Sequence record: PV806337.1
Source: a phage
Length of the DNA: 64,000 nt
Direction: 5' to 3' (one strand)
The position numbers and the translations under genes were made by a program. The notes below the pieces were generated by a model. It made no database searches. It was not told the DNA's origin and worked only from the letters and a program-made list of their open reading frames with translations. Position 1 is the stretch's first letter. Each line of letters begins with the position of its first letter. This document shows positions 1,755 to 22,553 of this stretch, piece by piece.

Positions 1755-2373
1755 AACAATACTCCTGTGTTGGAAATAAAATAAGTTTTCTTTAGGACTA
1801 TTCAGAAAGAATAGAACAACTGTTACTGTCAATTTCTCAACAAATTAATCGCAAATACTGAAGTGGGGTGGCAACTTCCACTTTCACGCTGCGCTGCTGC
1901 TTTGCTATATCGCACAAATCCTTGAGGATGGCCGCTAAGCCAGATTTGCTCACCTAATGCTTCATATACTAGCTCATACTAGATGCAATATAACTTACAG
2001 AATCACGTCTCGGAGTTTTTCACTCCTCCCATCTCACTTCACAACCACCTCATACTAGGTTGCTTCGAGGCCTTACCAGGGTTCCTATGGGACGCAGATC
2101 GCTAAGTATTCTATTAACTATTTGTTTAAAAACTAACACGTAACAGTTAAAACAACCCTTAATGGGGCAGCCTAACTGTTCCGTATCGCGGATTGTAAAC
2201 AAGAAAAATTAGCAAAATCAATTTTTACTAATGTCTCTCAATTCAATATAAATATTATATCAAGATTTTGGGCATCCTGCAAGTAAAATTTTCCGGATGG
2301 TGCTATCATTGGTCTTGAGTACGGATAAAACCGAGCCAAAATGACTCGGTAATCAGAGTTCAGCTAATAAAAA

Positions 2374-2766
2374 TCATTCATCATTTAAGCCTGGAACATA
2401 AATCCCAACACGGTTTAATTGTTCTTTAGCTTCTTTGAGAATATCTGGAGTGTACTCCCAAATATCATCTTCCACCTGTAAAAGATGGGGCGAACAACCA
2501 TCATCCGACACACGACATATGGCCAAACCACGTGGGTGGAACAAAGAGAAATTTAGGGCAACAATTAAACCCATAGCAGACAACTCATTCCAATCCAACT
2601 CCCATTCCCCCGCGTAGCCGGATAGGAAAACACCAACACAGGGATCATCTATTTGCTGCTCCGGAAAAGTGAAGGAGGCTTGTCTTACCCCCAACCAACG
2701 TTGTAGCAGCTTCTCCGCACGTTTCACCAAACTAGGATCAATCTGACGCCAATATACTTGTTCCAT
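2374..2766 (-). CDS. hypothetical protein, paralog of adjacent gene
   Basis: ORF track 130 aa; shares motifs (GL.VALN..LF.P, I.VPGL C-terminus) with 2776-3204 product. Confidence 0.55.
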   Translation of the reverse strand: MEQVYWRQIDPSLVKRAEKLLQRWLGVRQASFTFPEQQIDDPCVGVFLSGYAGEWELDWNELSAMGLIVALNFSLFHPRGLAICRVSDDGCSPHLLQVEDDIWEYTPDILKEAKEQLNRVGIYVPGLNDE

Positions 2767-2775
2767 TCTGCCTCC

Positions 2776-3204
2776 TTAAGCAGTTAAACCTGGGATCATA
2801 TACCCGAAACGTCGAAGTTTCTGAATCCCCTCATTTACTTCTTCCGGTGAGTAAGACCAACCATAACGTTCATTAACCTGAAAACCAGGAGATTCACTAG
2901 TTTTATAGTTAACAACAAGGCGATGCTTAGCAGGCATAAACAGCTTATAATTTAACGCAAAAACTAAGCCCATTTCGTCTAACTCTTTCCAGCCCACAAT
3001 CTCTTCAAGACCATCCTCTACCTGCACAATTAAACCAATACAGGGGGCCTCATCAATATCATCTTTAAAAGCAAAGGAGATTTCGTTATTCTCACACCAT
3101 ATTTTCAAGGAGTTAATAGCCTCATTATACAGGCTAGCCGGTAGAGTACGCCAAAAGTTAACCAAAATTGGGTTAGCTTCTTTAGAGAATACATTATTGA
3201 ACAT
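2776..3204 (-). CDS. hypothetical protein, paralog of adjacent gene
   Basis: ORF track 142 aa; tandem with 2374-2766 and similar in sequence. Confidence 0.55.
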   Translation of the reverse strand: MFNNVFSKEANPILVNFWRTLPASLYNEAINSLKIWCENNEISFAFKDDIDEAPCIGLIVQVEDGLEEIVGWKELDEMGLVFALNYKLFMPAKHRLVVNYKTSESPGFQVNERYGWSYSPEEVNEGIQKLRRFGYMIPGLTA

Positions 3205-3206
3205 AT

Positions 3207-3713
3207 TTACACCTTAAATTGTTGTAGGGCTTTACACATTTCAAGATCTGGACTAAATTCTAGCATATAGCTAACAGCCATTAAATCTTGAAGATTTATT
3301 CCAGTTCTACCGTTGACTATAACCGTTGGATACTGGTACATCATAGCACCAGCGTCATCCAGAACACACCAATGTTTGAGCTTATGCTTTTCAACGAAGC
3401 GAAGAACAGAATTACCCCTAGATAATCCACCCCCAGTAAAATCCGTTGTACCAAGAAAACGATCGATAAGACCTAATCCGGTCATAATCTGAACGTTCTC
3501 CATCTCATTCCTGACAGAGAACCATGAGGATACTCCAACAATCATTATCGGAGAAGGACGAATAAAGTCCTGAAAAGCCTTGAGAAGCGGTTTGAAAACC
3601 CAATCACTTCCAAAGAAAATCTTTTCGTCATCAGGTGCATGATGGTGGGAGATGCTCGAATTGAGCACCCCATCAATATCTAGAAAAATAATTGGAGTAT
3701 TACTTATTTCCAT
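3207..3713 (-). CDS. HAD-superfamily phosphatase-like protein
   Basis: ORF track 168 aa; N-terminal IIFLDIDGVLN motif (HAD motif I DxDGV). Confidence 0.6.
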   Translation of the reverse strand: MEISNTPIIFLDIDGVLNSSISHHHAPDDEKIFFGSDWVFKPLLKAFQDFIRPSPIMIVGVSSWFSVRNEMENVQIMTGLGLIDRFLGTTDFTGGGLSRGNSVLRFVEKHKLKHWCVLDDAGAMMYQYPTVIVNGRTGINLQDLMAVSYMLEFSPDLEMCKALQQFKV

Positions 3714-3909
3714 TTTTGTTCCTTTCTAAGAACCTATCATACTCAACCGTATCAACATATATAACACCATAGTCATCGGATTTATAGTCCATCTCCCACA
3801 GCTCACAGCGATAGCACCAACTACCATCCGCCCATACAAATATATCATCGGGGTGTGTATACACAGATTTAACTATGGACATACCTGTTTCCCTTGCTTC
3901 TCGACACAT
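3700..3909 (-). CDS. hypothetical small protein
   Basis: ORF track 69 aa, same strand as flanking operon, overlaps neighbours by a few codons. Confidence 0.4.
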   Translation of the reverse strand: MCREARETGMSIVKSVYTHPDDIFVWADGSWCYRCELWEMDYKSDDYGVIYVDTVEYDRFLERNKNGNK

Positions 3910-4705
3910 AAGGTCTACCCTCTAAATGAGCTTCTACACGAGCAATAAAATCAGGATCACTAAAAGCATCTACCGCACCTTTACTCCAGTAAGGGACACC
4001 ACGTTCTTCCAGCTGGTACATCTCACTACGAGTCATACCTTGATAGCCCGGTTCCGCCGCGAGGGCACTATCATAGTAGTTAACTACCATAAATTTCGCA
4101 GCAGTCCTATTAAGAACAGGAAATAATTCCCAGTAGAAGTTAATTACTTGGTTAGAGCAACCAACCACAATGATCATATCTTGACTGGTAATACCATCAA
4201 AAACATTATACATTTCTGCGTATGCAGGAGCATGCTCTCCAAAGAAGATTACATTAGGTTTAACCCATTTATAATCATCTGGATCAATAGAATTGTATCC
4301 TACATCAATAATCCGTTTATTGCTACTATTGTAGCTATCAGCTACAACAACCTCTTTTAAATATCCGTGAATATGCAGAATGTCACTATGTGGAACGCCA
4401 GCACGCTCAATAAGGTCATCAACGTTGGTAGTCAAGTTTACTACTTGACCTGGATATTGTTTATACCATTCACCAATACGCAAATGCGCAAGATTGGGTT
4501 CAACAGTTTTTAGCTCTTCACGACGCTTGTTGTAAAACATATGGGTTTTATGATAAAAATTACCACGAAAGGCATGAATATTACATACTTCTTCTAGATC
4601 ATAGTCATCCCACAATGCTTTACCACTAGCAGTATCAGTACGGAAGGCTCGTACACCACTTTCAACACTCAAACCCGCACCACTAATAATAATTAATCTA
4701 CGCAT
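3869..4705 (-). CDS. Sir2-family (sirtuin-like) NAD-dependent deacetylase / ADP-ribosyltransferase-like protein
   Basis: ORF track 278 aa; motifs GAGLSVESG..FR, TTNVDDL, IHG, VIFFGE, VVGCS match sirtuin core; no Zn-binding Cys pairs seen. Confidence 0.7.
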   Translation of the reverse strand: MRRLIIISGAGLSVESGVRAFRTDTASGKALWDDYDLEEVCNIHAFRGNFYHKTHMFYNKRREELKTVEPNLAHLRIGEWYKQYPGQVVNLTTNVDDLIERAGVPHSDILHIHGYLKEVVVADSYNSSNKRIIDVGYNSIDPDDYKWVKPNVIFFGEHAPAYAEMYNVFDGITSQDMIIVVGCSNQVINFYWELFPVLNRTAAKFMVVNYYDSALAAEPGYQGMTRSEMYQLEERGVPYWSKGAVDAFSDPDFIARVEAHLEGRPYVSRSKGNRYVHS

Positions 4706-4919
4706 TTTTCACCTGTTCTCTGAAGTTTTGCCCAATACTGTCTAATAGCTCAGCTAATTCTTTATTGCCTTTCTCCATTAAGGTATTAGCAATAACTTCT
4801 AGCATAGTAGCGCAGGATTCAACACCATCCTTATAGCCAGTTTCCCACTGCTGCATTAATGCATTTTCCAAAGCGGAGTTTAAACCCTTATCTGGTAGCA
4901 TCGGCTTCGAGAATGCCAT
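4698..4919 (-). CDS. hypothetical protein
   Basis: ORF track 73 aa in co-directional cassette. Confidence 0.45.
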   Translation of the reverse strand: MAFSKPMLPDKGLNSALENALMQQWETGYKDGVESCATMLEVIANTLMEKGNKELAELLDSIGQNFREQVKNA

Positions 4920-5112
4920 AAAGTTTCTCCTCTAGTTCCATAACACGATTTTCATAAGAGGCACGCAACTTTTCAATTGCCAGTGCACGCACTGTAACCT
5001 CATTAGAGTTAATAGCTAATTGGGCCAGATCTTCTGTTTCCATACGTCCGTTGTAAATTAATCGATATTTAAGGTGTTTCACATTCTTAGTCATTATTAA
5101 ACTCCACTGCAA
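4888..5112 (-). CDS. hypothetical protein
   Basis: ORF track 74 aa. Confidence 0.45.
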   Translation of the reverse strand: MQWSLIMTKNVKHLKYRLIYNGRMETEDLAQLAINSNEVTVRALAIEKLRASYENRVMELEEKLYGILEADATR

Positions 5113-5467
5113 CTGTTTCTAGGTCTTCGTCAGAAAAACTAGAGTATACATCTTTAAGATACTGTTTAATACTCCAAGTAATATCTTCGTACCCATTGGG
5201 GCTACGTTGGTATACTTTTAACACTCTATTATACACAAATTCAAGATTACATTTTACTTCATCTCTGTCTTCATCAAACAAGCAATATGGGTTATAAGGC
5301 GATACATCTAGATTTGTTCCCACCCAATCGCCAATAATGGTAGGGTATCCAACACCCTCTATATGCGAGTAATCACCTGTGGCAGCAAAGACAGCCTCAG
5401 CAATATCATCTACACCCAGATGGAAACTACCACATGTAGATTCAACTATATAGGGCTTTAATTCCAT
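5087..5467 (-). CDS. hypothetical protein
   Basis: ORF track 126 aa. Confidence 0.5.
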   Translation of the reverse strand: MELKPYIVESTCGSFHLGVDDIAEAVFAATGDYSHIEGVGYPTIIGDWVGTNLDVSPYNPYCLFDEDRDEVKCNLEFVYNRVLKVYQRSPNGYEDITWSIKQYLKDVYSSFSDEDLETVAVEFNND

Positions 5468-5566
5468 ATCTTTCTCCTCTCAAATTTATAAATCTATTAT
5501 ATATAAATTTTTGGCTGAAAGCAAATAAAATAAAAGCCAGGTCGACTAGCAACCCGGCTGATTAGC

Positions 5567-7414
5567 TTACTTAGCTCGAATATCCTGATGTTTCACCCTG
5601 CCCATAACCTCATGCTGTTTGCCTGGGTTAAATGGACGAGCACCTGGATTTCCAAGATACCCACAAACTCGACGAGTTACTTCAAGAGTTTCGGGGTCAT
5701 GATTACCACAGATAGGGCACTTAAATCCATCTTCGGATGCTATTGTTTCACCTAAGAATCCACATTTACCACAAGAATCCACTGGAGTATTAATACCGAA
5801 GTAATGAACTTTACTAGCAGCATAATTAATAACCCATTCTAGTGCATCTGGGAATCGTTTCATATCCGGTAGTTCTACATAGGAAATACACCCACCAGAA
5901 GCAATCGGAGTAAAGTTAGATTCATAATCAAATTTCACATTGGGAGCAACTTTACGTTCCACATCAAGGTGGTGAGAGTTAGTGTAGTATCCTTTGGACA
6001 GAATATCTTCATGCTCCGGGAAATATTCACGATCTAAACGGCAAAACCTATCACACAGGGACTCTGACGGTGTAGCATACAGGCTATAACCTAACTTAGT
6101 TTCTTCCTTCTTCTGATCGACTCTATCTCGCATGTACTGCAATACACGCTGAACAAACTTGATGCTGGTCTCGGACATTGTGTCTACATCTTTGCCAAAC
6201 ATGAACTGTAGCATTTCATGACAACCAATATATCCTAGAGATACAGAAGCACGGTTATAGAAATGATCGAATACGTATTCATCAGGCTCCAAGCGCAGTC
6301 CAAAGGCTCCTGACATATAGAGGATGGGTGCAGCTTTAGCTTGAATGTATTTTAAGCGATCAACTCTCCACTCCAACGCTTTTAATGCTGTATCCACACG
6401 TAGCTCAAGCAAATCAAAGAATAGATCAATATTTCCTTCAGCTTCGATAGCAATTCTAGGCAAGTTTACAGAAACAACACCTAAGTTATTACGACCTGCA
6501 GTTTCACCATCTTCTGTAGCAGCTAGGAATGAACGGCAGCCCATAGAAACTTTATAGTCACCAGTAACTTCCACAACCTTATCATAGCTGATATAATCTG
6601 GATACATACGTTCAGCAGTACATTTCATAGCTAACTTCTTGATGTCATAATTAACATCCCCTGGTTTCATATTAACGCCATCACGGAGTACAAATACCAG
6701 TTTAGGGAAGATAGCTGTACGCTTATTGATACCTAAACCATCCATGCGTACTTTCAGTATTGCTTTCTGTACTAGACGTGCTTCCCAAGAAGTTCCTAGA
6801 CCAAAACCAAAGGTAATAAATGGACTCTGCCCATTAGAGTTGAACATGGTATTGATTTCATATTCTAAACCCTGACAAGCGTCATAGACTTCTTTTTCAG
6901 TCATCTCCGTAGCCATTACGGATGCTTTGGCTTCATCCTTAGTCCAACGTTTTGCAAACGCATGATTTTTGTCATAAGATTTACGAACATAAGGGGCTAA
7001 TACTTCATCAAGGCGATCTACAGAAGTACCACCATACTGATGGGAGCTAACCTGAGTGATAATCTGAGCAGTAATAGCCGCCGCAGTAGTGATAGAGTTT
7101 GGAGTGCTAATTTCAGCATTACCAACCTTCATACCATTCTTCAACATATCTTCCAGAGCTACCAGGCAACAGTTAGTCATACCTAATGCAGCATAATCAG
7201 CATCATGGAAATGAATATCCCCAATCATATGAGCATTTCGAATCTGAATTGGCATTTCTTCTAAAATCAGATACTTACTCAATTCACCTGCAAGCATATC
7301 CCTTTGTGTAGGGAAACGTTCACTCGGTTTGTTCGCGTTATTAAAAAGTAACTCTTCATTGGCAGATCCCTCAATAATTTCCTTACAATTTCTAATCAAT
7401 TCATCTTTGTTCAT
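5567..7414 (-). CDS. nrdD: anaerobic ribonucleoside-triphosphate reductase (class III RNR)
   Basis: ORF track 615 aa; C-terminal Zn ribbon CGKCG..CPICG and glycyl-radical motif RRVCGYLG. Confidence 0.85.
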   Translation of the reverse strand: MNKDELIRNCKEIIEGSANEELLFNNANKPSERFPTQRDMLAGELSKYLILEEMPIQIRNAHMIGDIHFHDADYAALGMTNCCLVALEDMLKNGMKVGNAEISTPNSITTAAAITAQIITQVSSHQYGGTSVDRLDEVLAPYVRKSYDKNHAFAKRWTKDEAKASVMATEMTEKEVYDACQGLEYEINTMFNSNGQSPFITFGFGLGTSWEARLVQKAILKVRMDGLGINKRTAIFPKLVFVLRDGVNMKPGDVNYDIKKLAMKCTAERMYPDYISYDKVVEVTGDYKVSMGCRSFLAATEDGETAGRNNLGVVSVNLPRIAIEAEGNIDLFFDLLELRVDTALKALEWRVDRLKYIQAKAAPILYMSGAFGLRLEPDEYVFDHFYNRASVSLGYIGCHEMLQFMFGKDVDTMSETSIKFVQRVLQYMRDRVDQKKEETKLGYSLYATPSESLCDRFCRLDREYFPEHEDILSKGYYTNSHHLDVERKVAPNVKFDYESNFTPIASGGCISYVELPDMKRFPDALEWVINYAASKVHYFGINTPVDSCGKCGFLGETIASEDGFKCPICGNHDPETLEVTRRVCGYLGNPGARPFNPGKQHEVMGRVKHQDIRAK

Positions 7415-8072
7415 TAATTATTTCCTCAATAAACCTTGCTACTACTTCTGGCTCAATACTAAAAAATTCTGTAGCACCATCAAAATCTTTATATTGACAA
7501 TTATATTCCTTAAACTGTAAATGGGTTTCTCTCTCAATATGCATAGCTTTTGATCTATCTGAAAAGCTATACTCCTTAAATATTTTTAAATCATGTATGT
7601 TAGAGGAAGTTTTAATATCTCTGAGTCTATCTTTAGTTCTGCTAGACACACCTATTTTGGTTCCCACATTACTTACTAAAATATATACGTTAGTAGGATA
7701 ATTATCCTTCTCTAATAAACATATAGGACAACCAGAATTATGATTTCTAACACTATCAAGTGTAGACTCCCATTTATGATCATTCTCACAGCTGAACATG
7801 ATTTTACTCTTGGAATTGATATATTTACCTTCCATCTTTATTCCACGGGCAGCTAAAGATTCATTTACTTCTTTAAGATCTAAAGTACGGCTAGCACAAT
7901 AAGGGCAACCTCTACCACCTTTTACGTTATCTACTCTAGCCTCCCAACTATGCCCATTAGAGCACTTAAATATAGCCTTGGATTTAGCTGATACATACGT
8001 GCTTAGCATAACTATTCCTCTAGGAGCAAGTGCTAAGTTCACATCTTCTGTAGTTATTTTCTTTCTTACCAT
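7401..8072 (-). CDS. tandem zinc-ribbon + T5orf172 (GIY-YIG-like) domain protein
   Basis: ORF track 223 aa; two repeats with GCPYC/GCPIC; C-terminal YILVSN..KIGVS..R..GATEFF pattern. Confidence 0.6.
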   Translation of the reverse strand: MVRKKITTEDVNLALAPRGIVMLSTYVSAKSKAIFKCSNGHSWEARVDNVKGGRGCPYCASRTLDLKEVNESLAARGIKMEGKYINSKSKIMFSCENDHKWESTLDSVRNHNSGCPICLLEKDNYPTNVYILVSNVGTKIGVSSRTKDRLRDIKTSSNIHDLKIFKEYSFSDRSKAMHIERETHLQFKEYNCQYKDFDGATEFFSIEPEVVARFIEEIINEQR

Positions 8073-21496: not shown

Positions 21497-21571
21497 CGGG
21501 GTGTAGTCTAAGGGAGAGGCAGGAGTCTTCTAAATTCCTTTATGCAGGTTCGAATCCTGTCACCTCGGCCA
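21497..21571 (+). tRNA. tRNA-Arg (anticodon TCT)
   Basis: Acceptor CGGGGTG/CACCTCG, D-stem GTCT/AGGC, anticodon loop CTTCTAA, T-loop TTCGAAT, encoded CCA. Confidence 0.7.
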
Positions 21572-21605: not shown

Positions 21606-22553
21606 ATGTTTGCTACTAAAAATATGAAAGAACTGACTTCTGAGCAGAAAGTAATTCGTACTATTAAACGTTGGGGTATTGGTGCTGTAGTTGGTTTAGC
21701 AGGTTTAATCCTAGCTTTTAATTCATATACTATTGTTTCTGATGGTACGGTTAAAACCCAAACATTCCTGGGTAAAGTAGACCCTAATCCAGTATTGCCG
21801 GGCTTCCATCTTGTAAACCCGTTTGCATCTTTCGATACTTTTAGTACAAAAGATATTGCTGTAAAATTAGATAAACTTCAGGTTCCTAGCCAGGATAAGT
21901 TTAAATCCACTGTTGACCTGACTGTTATGTTGCAGTTTGATGGTTCTAAAGCACCGATTAACCGTATTAACGCAGGTACTCAGGATCAGGCACTAGACAA
22001 GTATGTAACTGAAAAATTACTGTCTACTATTCGTGAGTTTGGTAAGTCTGTACCTAAAGCACAAGATTTATTTGATGCTAAAATTCAGGCTCAATTGCAA
22101 ACTGCAATTCAACAGGAAGTTGAAGAGTATGCGCGCCCATATGGTTACACAGTTAAGCAGGTATTCCTTCAGGATATTACCTTGCCGCCAGTAATCATGG
22201 AACAGGTACAGAATACCAAAGTTCGTGAAGAGCAAGTTAATGCTGCGAAAGCTGAACTTGCTCGCGTTGAACAGGAAGCACAGCAAAAAGTTAAACAAGC
22301 AGAAGCAGATCGTGAAGCTCGTAACAACCAAGCTATTGCTAATGAACGTGACGCAGATGCTAAACTGTACGCAGCTAAGAAAGAAGCTGAAGCTAACGCC
22401 GCATTGCAACGTACCATTACTCCTGAAATGATTCGTTGGAAACAACTGGAAGTTGAAATGATCCGTGCTCAGAAGTATCAAGGTGGTGTACCTCAGACTG
22501 TGGTAGGTACTGGCTACGATGGTCAAATGATCATGGATATGCGTAACAAGTAA
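21606..22553 (+). CDS. SPFH/band-7 (prohibitin/HflK-like) membrane protein
   Basis: ORF track 315 aa; N-terminal TM segment, SPFH-like core, Ala/Glu/Gln-rich coiled-coil tail. Confidence 0.65.
   Translation: MFATKNMKELTSEQKVIRTIKRWGIGAVVGLAGLILAFNSYTIVSDGTVKTQTFLGKVDPNPVLPGFHLVNPFASFDTFSTKDIAVKLDKLQVPSQDKFKSTVDLTVMLQFDGSKAPINRINAGTQDQALDKYVTEKLLSTIREFGKSVPKAQDLFDAKIQAQLQTAIQQEVEEYARPYGYTVKQVFLQDITLPPVIMEQVQNTKVREEQVNAAKAELARVEQEAQQKVKQAEADREARNNQAIANERDADAKLYAAKKEAEANAALQRTITPEMIRWKQLEVEMIRAQKYQGGVPQTVVGTGYDGQMIMDMRNK

What the first reader, a model, noticed from the sequence alone, without database searches (positions are those of the whole stretch)
2374..4705. Reverse-strand accessory cassette: Sir2-like enzyme, HAD phosphatase and two tandem paralogs
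A co-directional block unrelated to DNA replication encodes a sirtuin-like protein (GAGLSVESG..FR, TTNVDDL, IHG, VIFFGE, VVGCS) with no zinc-binding cysteines, an HAD phosphatase (FLDIDGVL), and two small paralogous proteins. Sir2 domains cleave or transfer from NAD+, and HAD enzymes often dephosphorylate nucleotides or ADP-ribose derivatives. Together they could form a phage NAD+/ADP-ribose handling or counter-defence module, for example against NAD+-depleting abortive-infection systems.
Basis: partly seen in the sequence, partly recalled or inferred. Interest (0 to 1): 0.65.

Follow-up and report, generated by a model that had tools for sequence, protein, structure and literature searches.

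The report
T5 phage sirtuin–HAD phosphatase operon
This is the conserved accessory early operon of T5-like phages (T5.100–T5.107), encoding a zinc-less phage sirtuin, a small partner protein, a HAD phosphatase and two DUF7415 paralogs; the sirtuin–HAD pairing was already described in 2022 and its function is still untested.

Summary
All ORFs, motifs and the paralogy are real, and all genes are under purifying selection. The window is a T5-like phage, and the block equals T5.102–T5.107 inside one promoter-to-terminator unit of eight genes.

The Sir2–HAD pairing is not new. Iyer et al. 2022 (PMC9503650) described it in T5-like phage SP15. They proposed that this phage sirtuin clade removes RNA 2'-phosphates with NAD+, as KptA/Tpt1 does, and that the neighbouring phosphoesterases clean up. 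I reproduced all three of their neighbourhood types.

Three points I did not find in the papers I read:
- The T5-type HAD subfamily has its own motif signature. Its only close relatives outside T5-likes open HAD–Adps–Namat (NARP1) operons in phages that lack the sirtuin. This points to a soluble phospho-ADP-ribose substrate.
- A ~60-aa ORF follows Sir2 wherever the HAD lies.
- The DUF7415 pair has no recognisable fold and accompanies Sir2 only in T5-like lineages.

Defence against NAD+ depletion is not shown. No RNA ligase, kinase or NARP1 gene lies in the window. Function remains inferred.

The parts
5535..5559 (-). Intrinsic terminator-like hairpin ending the nrdD transcript; upstream boundary of the cassette
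   Evidence: 10-bp stem with 6 G-C pairs, followed by a T-run, -16.4 kcal/mol. The T5 record annotates a terminator at the equivalent site.
5496..5525 (-). Promoter-like site (consensus TATAAT at 5501-5496, weak -35 TTTGCT) ahead of the first ORF's ribosome-binding site
   Evidence: Read from the sequence. The T5 record annotates a promoter here. Function is inferred.
5087..5467 (-). 126-aa ORF, homologue of T5.100, unknown function; variable among T5-likes
   Evidence: phrog_11748; present, absent or replaced across loci.
4888..5112 (-). 74-aa ORF, homologue of T5.101, unknown function
   Evidence: dN/dS 0.03-0.16.
4698..4919 (-). 73-aa ORF, unknown function; overlaps the Sir2 start by 8 nt; often absent in relatives
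3869..4705 (-). Phage-clade sirtuin (T5.102 orthologue). It resembles class III sirtuins, lacks the zinc site, and retains the catalytic residues.
   Evidence: Pfam SIR2 at 8e-25. Best PDB sequence match is E. coli CobB at 2e-17, with Y58xxR61 aligned to the CobB YxxR. GAG, F21, R22, N94, D97, H113 and the F154-F155-x-E157 core of the FGE motif (G156 is N in one member) are invariant across 7 phage lineages. Scores fall below the CobB equivalog cut-offs. No PADLOC hit.
3700..3909 (-). 69-aa ORF (probably about 60 aa from the internal Met; T5.104 homologue). It overlaps both the Sir2 end and the HAD start and carries a conserved DDxxVWPDGxWCYR motif.
   Evidence: phrog_5116. Homologues lie directly after Sir2 in T5-likes, Klebsiella T5-likes, L108/L109 and L005, whatever the position of the HAD.
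3207..3713 (-). HAD-superfamily phosphatase (T5.105 orthologue) of the HAD_SAK_2 family, in a distinct subfamily
2776..3204 (-). DUF7415 protein a (T5.106 orthologue), two DUF7415 repeats, unknown function
2374..2766 (-). DUF7415 protein b (T5.107 orthologue), paralog of a at 32% identity
   Evidence: Split into two ORFs in phage MM-1.
2324..2350 (-). Terminator-like hairpin followed by UUUUAU; downstream boundary of the operon
   Evidence: 9-bp stem, centroid -12.6 kcal/mol, z -2.3. The T5 record annotates a terminator after T5.107.

Best explanation
This is an accessory early operon of T5-like phages for NAD+-dependent phosphate removal and clean-up of the resulting ADP-ribose phosphate.

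Shown:
- The genes form one tightly packed transcription unit.
- The sirtuin keeps all residues needed to cleave nicotinamide from NAD+.
- The HAD keeps all catalytic motifs of an Mg2+-dependent phosphatase.
- Sir2, the ~60-aa ORF and the HAD stay linked through gene-order changes.

Inferred:
1. The sirtuin, perhaps with the ~60-aa partner, uses NAD+ the way KptA/Tpt1 does. It transfers ADP-ribose onto a phosphomonoester, most likely an RNA 2'-phosphate left after cleavage by host ribonuclease toxins. This releases nicotinamide, dephosphorylated RNA and ADP-ribose 1'',2''-cyclic phosphate or ADP-ribose 1''-phosphate.
2. The HAD then hydrolyses the ADP-ribose phosphate to ADP-ribose. This is the role of Poa1p in yeast tRNA splicing and of the Macro-domain Adpp in NARP1-AP.
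3. In ChuuTotoro-type phages the same HAD subfamily would do the same step on host-made ADP-ribose phosphate, feeding NARP1.

The DUF7415 pair and the three upstream small ORFs have no assigned role.
For: - Operon structure.
- Catalytic residues are invariant in seven lineages. The class III YxxR anion-binding motif is retained (its role is from my own knowledge of SIRT5/CobB).
- In the T5, rV5 and phi92 clades the sirtuin lacks the zinc cysteines. It also has N or D at the position after V187 that corresponds by offset to CobB P221, which PMC5107563 calls strictly conserved (the printed alignment ends at V187). This hints at an altered peptide-binding site.
- The same sirtuin clade sits beside Rnl1 ligase, cREC and a P-loop kinase in rV5-likes.
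- It sits beside 2H, Nudix, cREC and PIN-PhoH in jumbo phages.
- It sits beside the HAD in T5-likes. These are the three contexts of Iyer et al. 2022, who made the KptA-like proposal.
- The HAD subfamily is also the first gene of HAD-Adps-Namat operons. It shares a private motif signature with the T5 HAD.
- Known NARP1 accessory genes, Adpp and RyDEP, convert ADPR derivatives to ADPR.
Against: - No biochemical evidence was found in the papers I searched that any sirtuin acts on RNA phosphate.
- The window has no RNA ligase, kinase or cREC. T5-likes are essentially absent from 815 phage records holding an Rnl1 ligase. So the source of 2'-phosphate RNA and the sealing step are unexplained.
- No cyclic phosphodiesterase is evident in the cassette.
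- The sirtuin's nearest characterised relatives are true lysine deacylases, and it keeps the FGE and YxxR motifs.
- Klebsiella T5-likes keep Sir2 without the HAD, and ChuuTotoro keeps the HAD without Sir2. Neither enzyme strictly needs the other.
- The NARP1-HAD link comes from one phage lineage: 3 isolates plus 2 further contigs (L006, L158).
- HAD structural neighbours (MDP-1, SCP1) do not discriminate small-molecule from macromolecular substrates.
Confidence: 0.3

Rival explanations
1. Ordinary protein deacylase for host takeover. The sirtuin removes acetyl or succinyl groups from host or phage proteins to tune metabolism or replication. The HAD, the ~60-aa ORF and the DUF7415 proteins are independent accessory genes that merely share the operon.
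For: - Best structural-sequence relatives are CobB, Sir2Af and SIRT5.
- The best NCBIfam models are CobB-type deacylases.
- The catalytic His, FGE loop and YxxR are retained.
- This sirtuin clade occurs in about 1000 phage records, most without the HAD.
- A 2016 study argued for deacetylase function of the KVP40-type homologue by modelling.
Against: - Scores are far below the CobB equivalog cut-offs, 90-101 bits against 243-320.
- The zinc module cysteines are lost, and the CobB P221-equivalent position inferred by offset is N or D.
- Neighbours are recurrently nucleic-acid or ADPR phosphoesterases, not protein-modification genes.
- Sir2-HAD linkage survives gene-order inversion.
Confidence: 0.2
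2. Direct counter-defence at the NAD+/ADPR level. The HAD destroys or recycles a defence-made phospho-ADPR such as the ADPR-1''-phosphate produced by aRES. The sirtuin degrades or remodels an NAD+-derived immune signal or adduct. Together they protect a phage that depends on NAD+ for its own DNA ligase.
For: - HAD subfamily members open NARP1 operons in a phage genome that has no sirtuin at all. There the substrate must be host-derived.
- aRES makes ADPR-1P, which NARP1 cannot use without a phosphatase.
- Namat-, Nampt- or Adps-like genes lie within a few genes of this sirtuin in several lineages: L133, L135, L138, L141, L142 and L154-156.
- An Acb1-like 2H gene abuts Sir2 in a jumbo phage.
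- T5-likes carry an NAD-dependent DNA ligase on the same strand about 7 kb away.
Against: - The window has no Adps or Namat to convert ADPR back to NAD+, so dephosphorylating ADPR-1P alone would not restore NAD+.
- A sirtuin consumes NAD+.
- No sirtuin is known to cleave Thoeris-type signals.
- No plating data for T5-likes on aRES were available in the text I could read.
Confidence: 0.2
3. RNA end-healing by the HAD itself. As the Pfam name implies, the HAD removes 3'- or 2'-phosphates from cleaved tRNA or mRNA ends, like the phosphatase domain of T4 Pnkp, and host ligases reseal. The sirtuin acts separately or on the junction phosphate.
For: - The HAD is a member of HAD_SAK_2.
- Its closest folds are HADs that I take, from my own knowledge, to be capless and to act on macromolecular phospho-substrates, such as SCP1 and UBLCP1.
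- This is one of the options offered by Iyer et al..
- The phage carries 21 tRNA genes.
Against: - No kinase or ligase partner lies in the window or in T5-likes.
- The subfamily signature differs from the bulk of phage HAD_SAK_2 proteins.
- Its only non-T5 context is a NAD+ reconstitution operon, not RNA repair.
- Generic phage HAD_SAK_2 homologues show no recurrent neighbours at all.
Confidence: 0.1

Closest known systems
Type-3 'sirtuin + Swiss-army-knife HAD' neighbourhood of T5-like phage SP15 (Iyer, Burroughs, Anantharaman, Aravind 2022, PMC9503650)
   Same: It is the same gene pair in the same phage group. The DUF7415 protein of SP15 is 92% identical to the window's. The same sirtuin clade is involved, and I reproduced all three neighbourhood types.
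   Different: That paper does not mention the ~60-aa ORF, the DUF7415 pair or a NARP1-linked HAD. Its functional proposal is purely computational.
Tpt1/KptA - Cpd1 - Poa1p pathway (removal of the tRNA-splicing 2'-phosphate with NAD+)
   Same: The proposed chemistry matches: NAD+ is consumed, nicotinamide is released, a phospho-ADPR by-product forms, and a phosphatase converts it to ADPR.
   Different: Tpt1 has an ADP-ribosyltransferase fold and Poa1p a Macro fold. Here the candidates are a sirtuin and a HAD, so they are analogues at most, not family members. No cyclic phosphodiesterase or ligase is present.
NARP1-AP (Adps - Macro-domain Adpp - Namat; Osterman et al. 2026 preprint, 10.64898/2026.01.28.702374)
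   Same: A phosphatase gene is embedded in a NARP1 operon. ChuuTotoro-type phages have HAD-Adps-Namat, with a HAD about 39% identical to the window's.
   Different: The phosphatase is a HAD, not a Macro domain, and sits before Adps rather than between the two genes. The window itself has no Adps or Namat. The substrate is untested.
Class III sirtuins (E. coli CobB, human SIRT5)
   Same: Same Rossmann core: GAGxS, FR, xNxD and HG motifs, FGE loop and the YxxR motif.
   Different: No zinc-binding cysteines, and TTNVD instead of TQNID. N189, the position corresponding by offset to CobB P221, replaces the conserved VxP proline. There is a roughly 90-aa C-terminal extension. Scores fall well below the equivalog cut-offs.
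Defence-associated SIR2 NADases (ThsA, DSR1/2, SIR2-HerA, pAgo-SIR2)
   Same: Sir2 superfamily, and also zinc-less.
   Different: No match to any PADLOC model. It has no sensor or partner domain, is encoded by a lytic phage, and its closest sequences are deacylase-type sirtuins.
T4 polynucleotide kinase-phosphatase (Pnkp)
   Same: A DxDxT-type HAD phosphatase in a phage. The Pfam family name refers to RNA repair.
   Different: It is a single-domain 168-aa protein with no kinase domain and no ligase partner. No sequence match to any PDB chain at E<=1.

Membership tests
Sir2/sirtuin superfamily (PF02146) | NAD+-binding GAGxS...FR motif, xNxD motif and catalytic His-Gly | tested here: met
   Pfam E 8e-25. 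GAG, F21, R22, N94, D97 and H113-G114 are invariant in 7 lineages.
Class III sirtuin / CobB | YxxR motif next to the active site | tested here: met
   Y58 and R61 align with CobB chain residues Y53 and R56, which are Y92 and R95 in full-length numbering. They are invariant in the phage clade. The functional role is from my own knowledge.
Class III sirtuin / CobB | Four-cysteine zinc-binding module | tested here: not met
   Only two cysteines, neither in a CxxC pair.
Class III sirtuin / CobB | Score above the curated equivalog cut-off | tested here: not met
   NCBIfam scores of 100.7 against a cut-off of 243, and 90.4 against 320.
Class III sirtuin / CobB | NAD+-dependent lysine deacylase activity | not testable with these tools
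   Needs an enzyme assay.
Defence-type SIR2 (ThsA, DSR, SIR2-HerA, pAgo-SIR2) | Match to defence SIR2 profiles and an adjacent or fused sensor or partner (SLOG, HerA, pAgo) | tested here: not met
   No PADLOC hit at E<=0.01 for any of the 8 ORFs. None of the cassette ORFs carries such a domain.
SirTM (macrodomain-linked ADP-ribosylating sirtuins) | Adjacent Macro-domain gene | tested here: not met
   No Macro domain among the 8 operon ORFs. The catalytic His is retained.
Phage 'RNA-repair' sirtuin clade, type 3 (Iyer et al. 2022) | Distinct phage sirtuin joined to a SAK-like HAD in a T5-like phage | tested here: met
   The SP15 homologue appears.
Tpt1/KptA RNA 2'-phosphotransferase | ADP-ribosyltransferase fold | tested here: not met
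   The protein has a Sir2 Rossmann fold. It could be a functional analogue only.
Tpt1/KptA RNA 2'-phosphotransferase | NAD+-dependent removal of RNA 2'-phosphate | not testable with these tools
   Needs an enzyme assay.
Complete RNA-repair system (ligase + kinase + end phosphatase) | RNA ligase and polynucleotide kinase encoded with the phosphatase | tested here: not met
   tblastn with Rnl1, cREC, P-loop kinase and Metallophos seeds finds nothing in the 64-kb window. Only 14 of the 815 phage records holding Rnl1 are Salmonella phages, so T5-likes, which are mostly Salmonella phages, are essentially absent.
HAD superfamily phosphatase | Motif I DxDx(T/V), motif II S/T, motif IV DD, and a Rossmannoid fold with a flap | tested here: met
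HAD_SAK_2 (PF18143) | Score above the Pfam gathering cut-off | tested here: met
   73 bits against 27.5.
T4 Pnkp-type end-healing enzyme | Fused 5'-kinase domain | tested here: not met
   Single-domain 168-aa protein. No PDB sequence hit.
NARP1 / NARP1-AP | Adps and Namat genes in the operon | tested here: not met
   Absent from the window. Present next to HAD homologues in L004, L006 and L158.
NARP1 / NARP1-AP | ADPR-1''-phosphate phosphatase activity of the accessory gene | not testable with these tools
   Needs an enzyme assay or a complementation test.
DUF7415 (PF24187) | Score above the Pfam gathering cut-off | tested here: met
   120.8 and 107 bits against a cut-off of 27, with two repeats per protein.

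The most novel reading that the evidence does not exclude
The T5-type HAD subfamily is a non-Macro ADP-ribose-1''-phosphate (or related phospho-ADPR) phosphatase. If so, HAD-Adps-Namat in ChuuTotoro-type phages is a second, unrecognised form of NARP1-AP. The T5 operon would then pair that enzyme with a sirtuin that generates phospho-ADPR by stripping phosphates from RNA. That would be a new catalytic activity for the sirtuin superfamily and a ligase-independent RNA or NAD+ counter-defence in a model phage.
Probability: 0.25. Interest if true: 0.75.

Novelty: already known. Interest (0 to 1): 0.45.

Why it matters
This sirtuin clade is in about 2% of sequenced phage genomes: 1001 of 50,697 records, including T5, rV5-like, phi92-like, KVP40-like and jumbo phages. 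I found no experimentally shown function for it.

Phage–host conflict over NAD+ is an active field (NARP1-3, aRES, Thoeris evasion). If the sirtuin works like Tpt1 it would be a new enzymatic activity for sirtuins. If the HAD is an ADPR-phosphate phosphatase it would extend the set of NARP1 accessory enzymes.

The HAD–NARP1 link gives a cheap, direct test in genetically tractable T5. As it stands, however, the cassette is a long-annotated block (T5.102–T5.107) with a published computational hypothesis, so it is not a discovery.

Tried and rejected
- **HAD against PDB sequences:** no hit at E<=1.
- **DUF7415 profile against 1.84 billion representatives:** only 50 hits. The single informative fusion is to a thymidylate kinase, and two long hits were low-complexity artefacts.
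- **Is DUF7415 a 2H phosphoesterase?** Rejected, because there are no paired HxT/S motifs.
- **Neighbour enrichment for 47 distant viral HAD_SAK_2 loci (22-33% identity):** no family recurs in more than 2 of 142 neighbours. The Sir2 and NARP1 links are therefore specific to the T5-type subfamily.
- **Domain fusions of the sirtuin:** the top 120 homologues are all single-domain proteins.
- **Is the 217-aa ORF between Adps and Namat in L133 a Macro Adpp?** No Pfam hit, so a "HAD replaces Macro" argument cannot be made.
- **PADLOC scan of all eight ORFs:** no hits.
- **Candidate NARP3 (NadR/PnuC) genes at 22.9-24.4 kb of the window:** no Pfam support. I did not establish whether this phage has NARP3.
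- **Literature:** no paper found for DUF7415 or HAD_SAK_2. No experimental paper on a phage sirtuin. The Burroughs & Aravind 2016 paper was not retrievable.
- **Providencia phage PSTCR6 HAD context:** uninformative.
Full report
**What is there**

The window is a T5-like phage. Region 2200-5600 is 99.9% identical to Escherichia phage EC148, and more than 80% of it is present in 181 phage records.

On the minus strand the ORF list gives, in order of transcription:
- nrdD, 5567-7414
- three small ORFs: 5087-5467, 4888-5112 and 4698-4919
- a 278-aa Sir2 protein, 3869-4705
- a 69-aa ORF, 3700-3909
- a 168-aa HAD protein, 3207-3713
- two DUF7415 proteins, 2776-3204 and 2374-2766

Family assignments are firm: Pfam SIR2 at 8e-25, HAD_SAK_2 at 4e-20, and DUF7415 at 2.6e-35 and 5.3e-31. 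The two DUF7415 proteins are 32% identical, E 7e-21.

The genes overlap or are separated by at most 9 nt. A strong hairpin with a T-run follows nrdD (5559-5535). A consensus TATAAT lies at 5501-5496. A second hairpin with a U-run follows the last gene (2350-2324). The phage T5 reference record annotates the same promoter and terminators around T5.100-T5.107. This shows that the cassette equals T5.102 (Sir2), T5.104 (small ORF), T5.105 (HAD), T5.106 and T5.107.

Pairwise dN/dS values are 0.03-0.21 for all genes (0.375 for DUFb against the most distant Klebsiella orthologue).

**The sirtuin**

Its best matches among solved structures are E. coli CobB (2e-17), the archaeal Sir2Af proteins and SIRT5. 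These are deacylase-type sirtuins, not defence NADases. No PADLOC defence model matches.

Across seven phage lineages these residues are invariant: GAG, F21, R22, N94, D97, H113-G114, the F154-F155-x-E157 core of the FGE motif (G156 is N in one member) and Y58-x-x-R61. The last pair aligns with the CobB and SIRT5 YxxR motif. That this motif binds a distal anion is my own knowledge.

It departs from CobB in several ways:
- It has no zinc cysteines.
- It has TTNVD in place of TQNID.
- In the T5, rV5 and phi92 clades it has N or D at the position after V187 that corresponds by offset to CobB P221, which PMC5107563 calls strictly conserved (the printed alignment ends at V187).
- Its scores are far below the curated CobB cut-offs.

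The clade is in 1001 of 50,697 phage records. Its 120 best homologues are all single-domain proteins on phage-sized contigs.

**The HAD**

All catalytic motifs are invariant. The model is confident, pLDDT 94.6. Its nearest folds are the HADs MDP-1, SCP1 and UBLCP1, which I class as capless from my own knowledge. This does not settle whether the substrate is small or macromolecular.

Public records often label this gene "Sir2". That label is an artefact of phrog_18062.

**Context elsewhere**

Close HAD homologues (35-43% identity) fall in two settings.
- In divergent T5-like contigs the order is HAD, then a 117-119-aa ORF (81 aa in L005), then SIR2. The pairing therefore survives inversion of gene order.
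- In Serratia phage ChuuTotoro and its relatives the HAD overlaps and leads an operon with a PRPP-synthetase-like gene and a 595-aa protein. That protein matches crystallised phage Namat (9W5X) at 1e-115, against 1e-48 for Nampt. This is a NARP1 operon.

ChuuTotoro's whole genome has no sirtuin.

The Sir2-linked and NARP1-linked HADs share VSSWF, GGGxxRG and DDAGxxMY. The bulk of phage HAD_SAK_2 proteins have SSxWR and DDDxDML instead, and they show no recurrent neighbours.

The sirtuin clade itself recurs in several settings:
- next to an Rnl1 ligase, cREC and a P-loop kinase in rV5-likes;
- next to a 2H (Acb1-like) gene, Nudix, cREC and PIN-PhoH in jumbo phages;
- within a few genes of Namat-, Nampt- or Adps-like genes in several lineages.

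Within T5-likes, Sir2, HAD and both DUF7415 genes are constant, while the upstream small ORFs vary.
- One phage contig from the viral-contig collection (L021) has deleted Sir2 through the HAD N-terminus.
- Klebsiella T5-likes lack the HAD but keep Sir2, the small ORF and two DUF7415 genes.

The ~60-aa ORF follows Sir2 in every T5-like lineage I could test by homology, and in L108/L109. DUF7415 lies beside Sir2 only in T5-like lineages. It has no known fold.

**Literature**

Iyer et al. [quoted passage not shown] I found no experimental test of this proposal.

Later work defined several NAD+ rescue pathways:
- NARP1.
- NARP1-AP, in which a Macro-domain phosphatase, Adpp, converts aRES-made ADPR-1''-phosphate to ADPR.
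- A NARP1-linked glycosidase.
- NARP3, described in the phage Bas30, which I take to be T5-like from my own recollection of the BASEL collection.

Neither of the NARP1 accessory-enzyme papers nor the original NARP1 preprint mentions a HAD.

**Interpretation**

The model that unifies most contexts is a Tpt1/Poa1-like two-step. The sirtuin spends NAD+ to remove a phosphate, probably an RNA 2'-phosphate, and yields a phospho-ADPR. The HAD then converts that to ADPR. The NARP1-linked HAD would perform the same second step on host-made phospho-ADPR.

I give this model 0.3, for four reasons:
- T5-likes lack a ligase, kinase or cyclic phosphodiesterase.
- Neither enzyme strictly needs the other.
- The NARP1 link comes from one lineage.
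- The sirtuin still looks much like a deacylase.

**Verdict**

This is a real, conserved, dispensable accessory operon. It is already annotated in T5, and its Sir2-HAD core has already been described and interpreted computationally. What is added here:
- the operon boundaries;
- the conserved small partner ORF;
- the HAD subfamily signature and its NARP1 context;
- the absence of any fold relative for DUF7415.

Noticed in passing
window 3207-3713 and 2374-3204; L001, L002, L003, L168: Public records mislabel the HAD as "Sir2 (NAD-dependent deacetylase)" through phrog_18062. The DUF7415 genes are variously called tail tube protein, tail protein or exonuclease. The "Sir2 x2" in annotations is not a duplicated sirtuin.
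   Followed up: yes
window 3869-4705 and 5567-7414 compared with L016-L019 and L115-L118: Within otherwise near-identical T5-like genomes the sirtuin occurs as alleles of 91% identity or more, about 62%, and about 53%, while the adjacent HAD stays about 90% identical. nrdD likewise has 99% and 60% alleles. This looks like mosaic exchange or diversification at this locus.
   Followed up: partly
L021 (IMGVR_UViG_2706796320) and L003 (phage MM-1): One T5-like contig from the viral-contig collection (L021) has a natural deletion removing Sir2, the small ORF and the HAD N-terminus. Phage MM-1 has the second DUF7415 gene split into two ORFs. The cassette is therefore dispensable for propagation.
   Followed up: partly
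window 21606-22553 (+), beside tRNA-Arg at 21497-21571: A 315-aa SPFH/Band-7 protein (Pfam E 2e-17) sits at the edge of a 21-gene tRNA cluster (21.5-33.4 kb). From memory, SPFH modules have been proposed as RNA-repair scaffolds associated with tRNA-like RNAs.
   Followed up: no
window 7401-8072 (-): A 223-aa ORF between nrdD and phoH has repeated CxxC-containing segments. An ORF at the equivalent position in L005 has weak T5orf172/MUG113 hits, suggesting a homing-endonuclease-like mobile gene.
   Followed up: no
L142 5509-5955: In a 366-kb jumbo-phage contig the gene directly upstream of the sirtuin is a 2H phosphoesterase. It matches the Pfam anti-CBASS Acb1 family (E 1.6e-16) better than the generic 2'-5' RNA ligase family.
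   Followed up: no
L133 1031-6750: A 146-kb contig related to ChuuTotoro has a 128aa-Adps-217aa-Namat operon divergently adjacent (about 1.1 kb) to a sirtuin-DNA ligase operon. It has no HAD. The 217-aa ORF between Adps and Namat has no Pfam match.
   Followed up: partly
P0081 (515 aa, metagenomic): One protein fuses a DUF7415 domain to a thymidylate kinase domain. This is the only functional hint for DUF7415.
   Followed up: no
L157 41187-43140 (phage fp01); same strand as the cassette: T5-likes encode a split NAD+-dependent DNA ligase about 7-9 kb downstream of the cassette. The phage therefore has its own requirement for NAD+.
   Followed up: no
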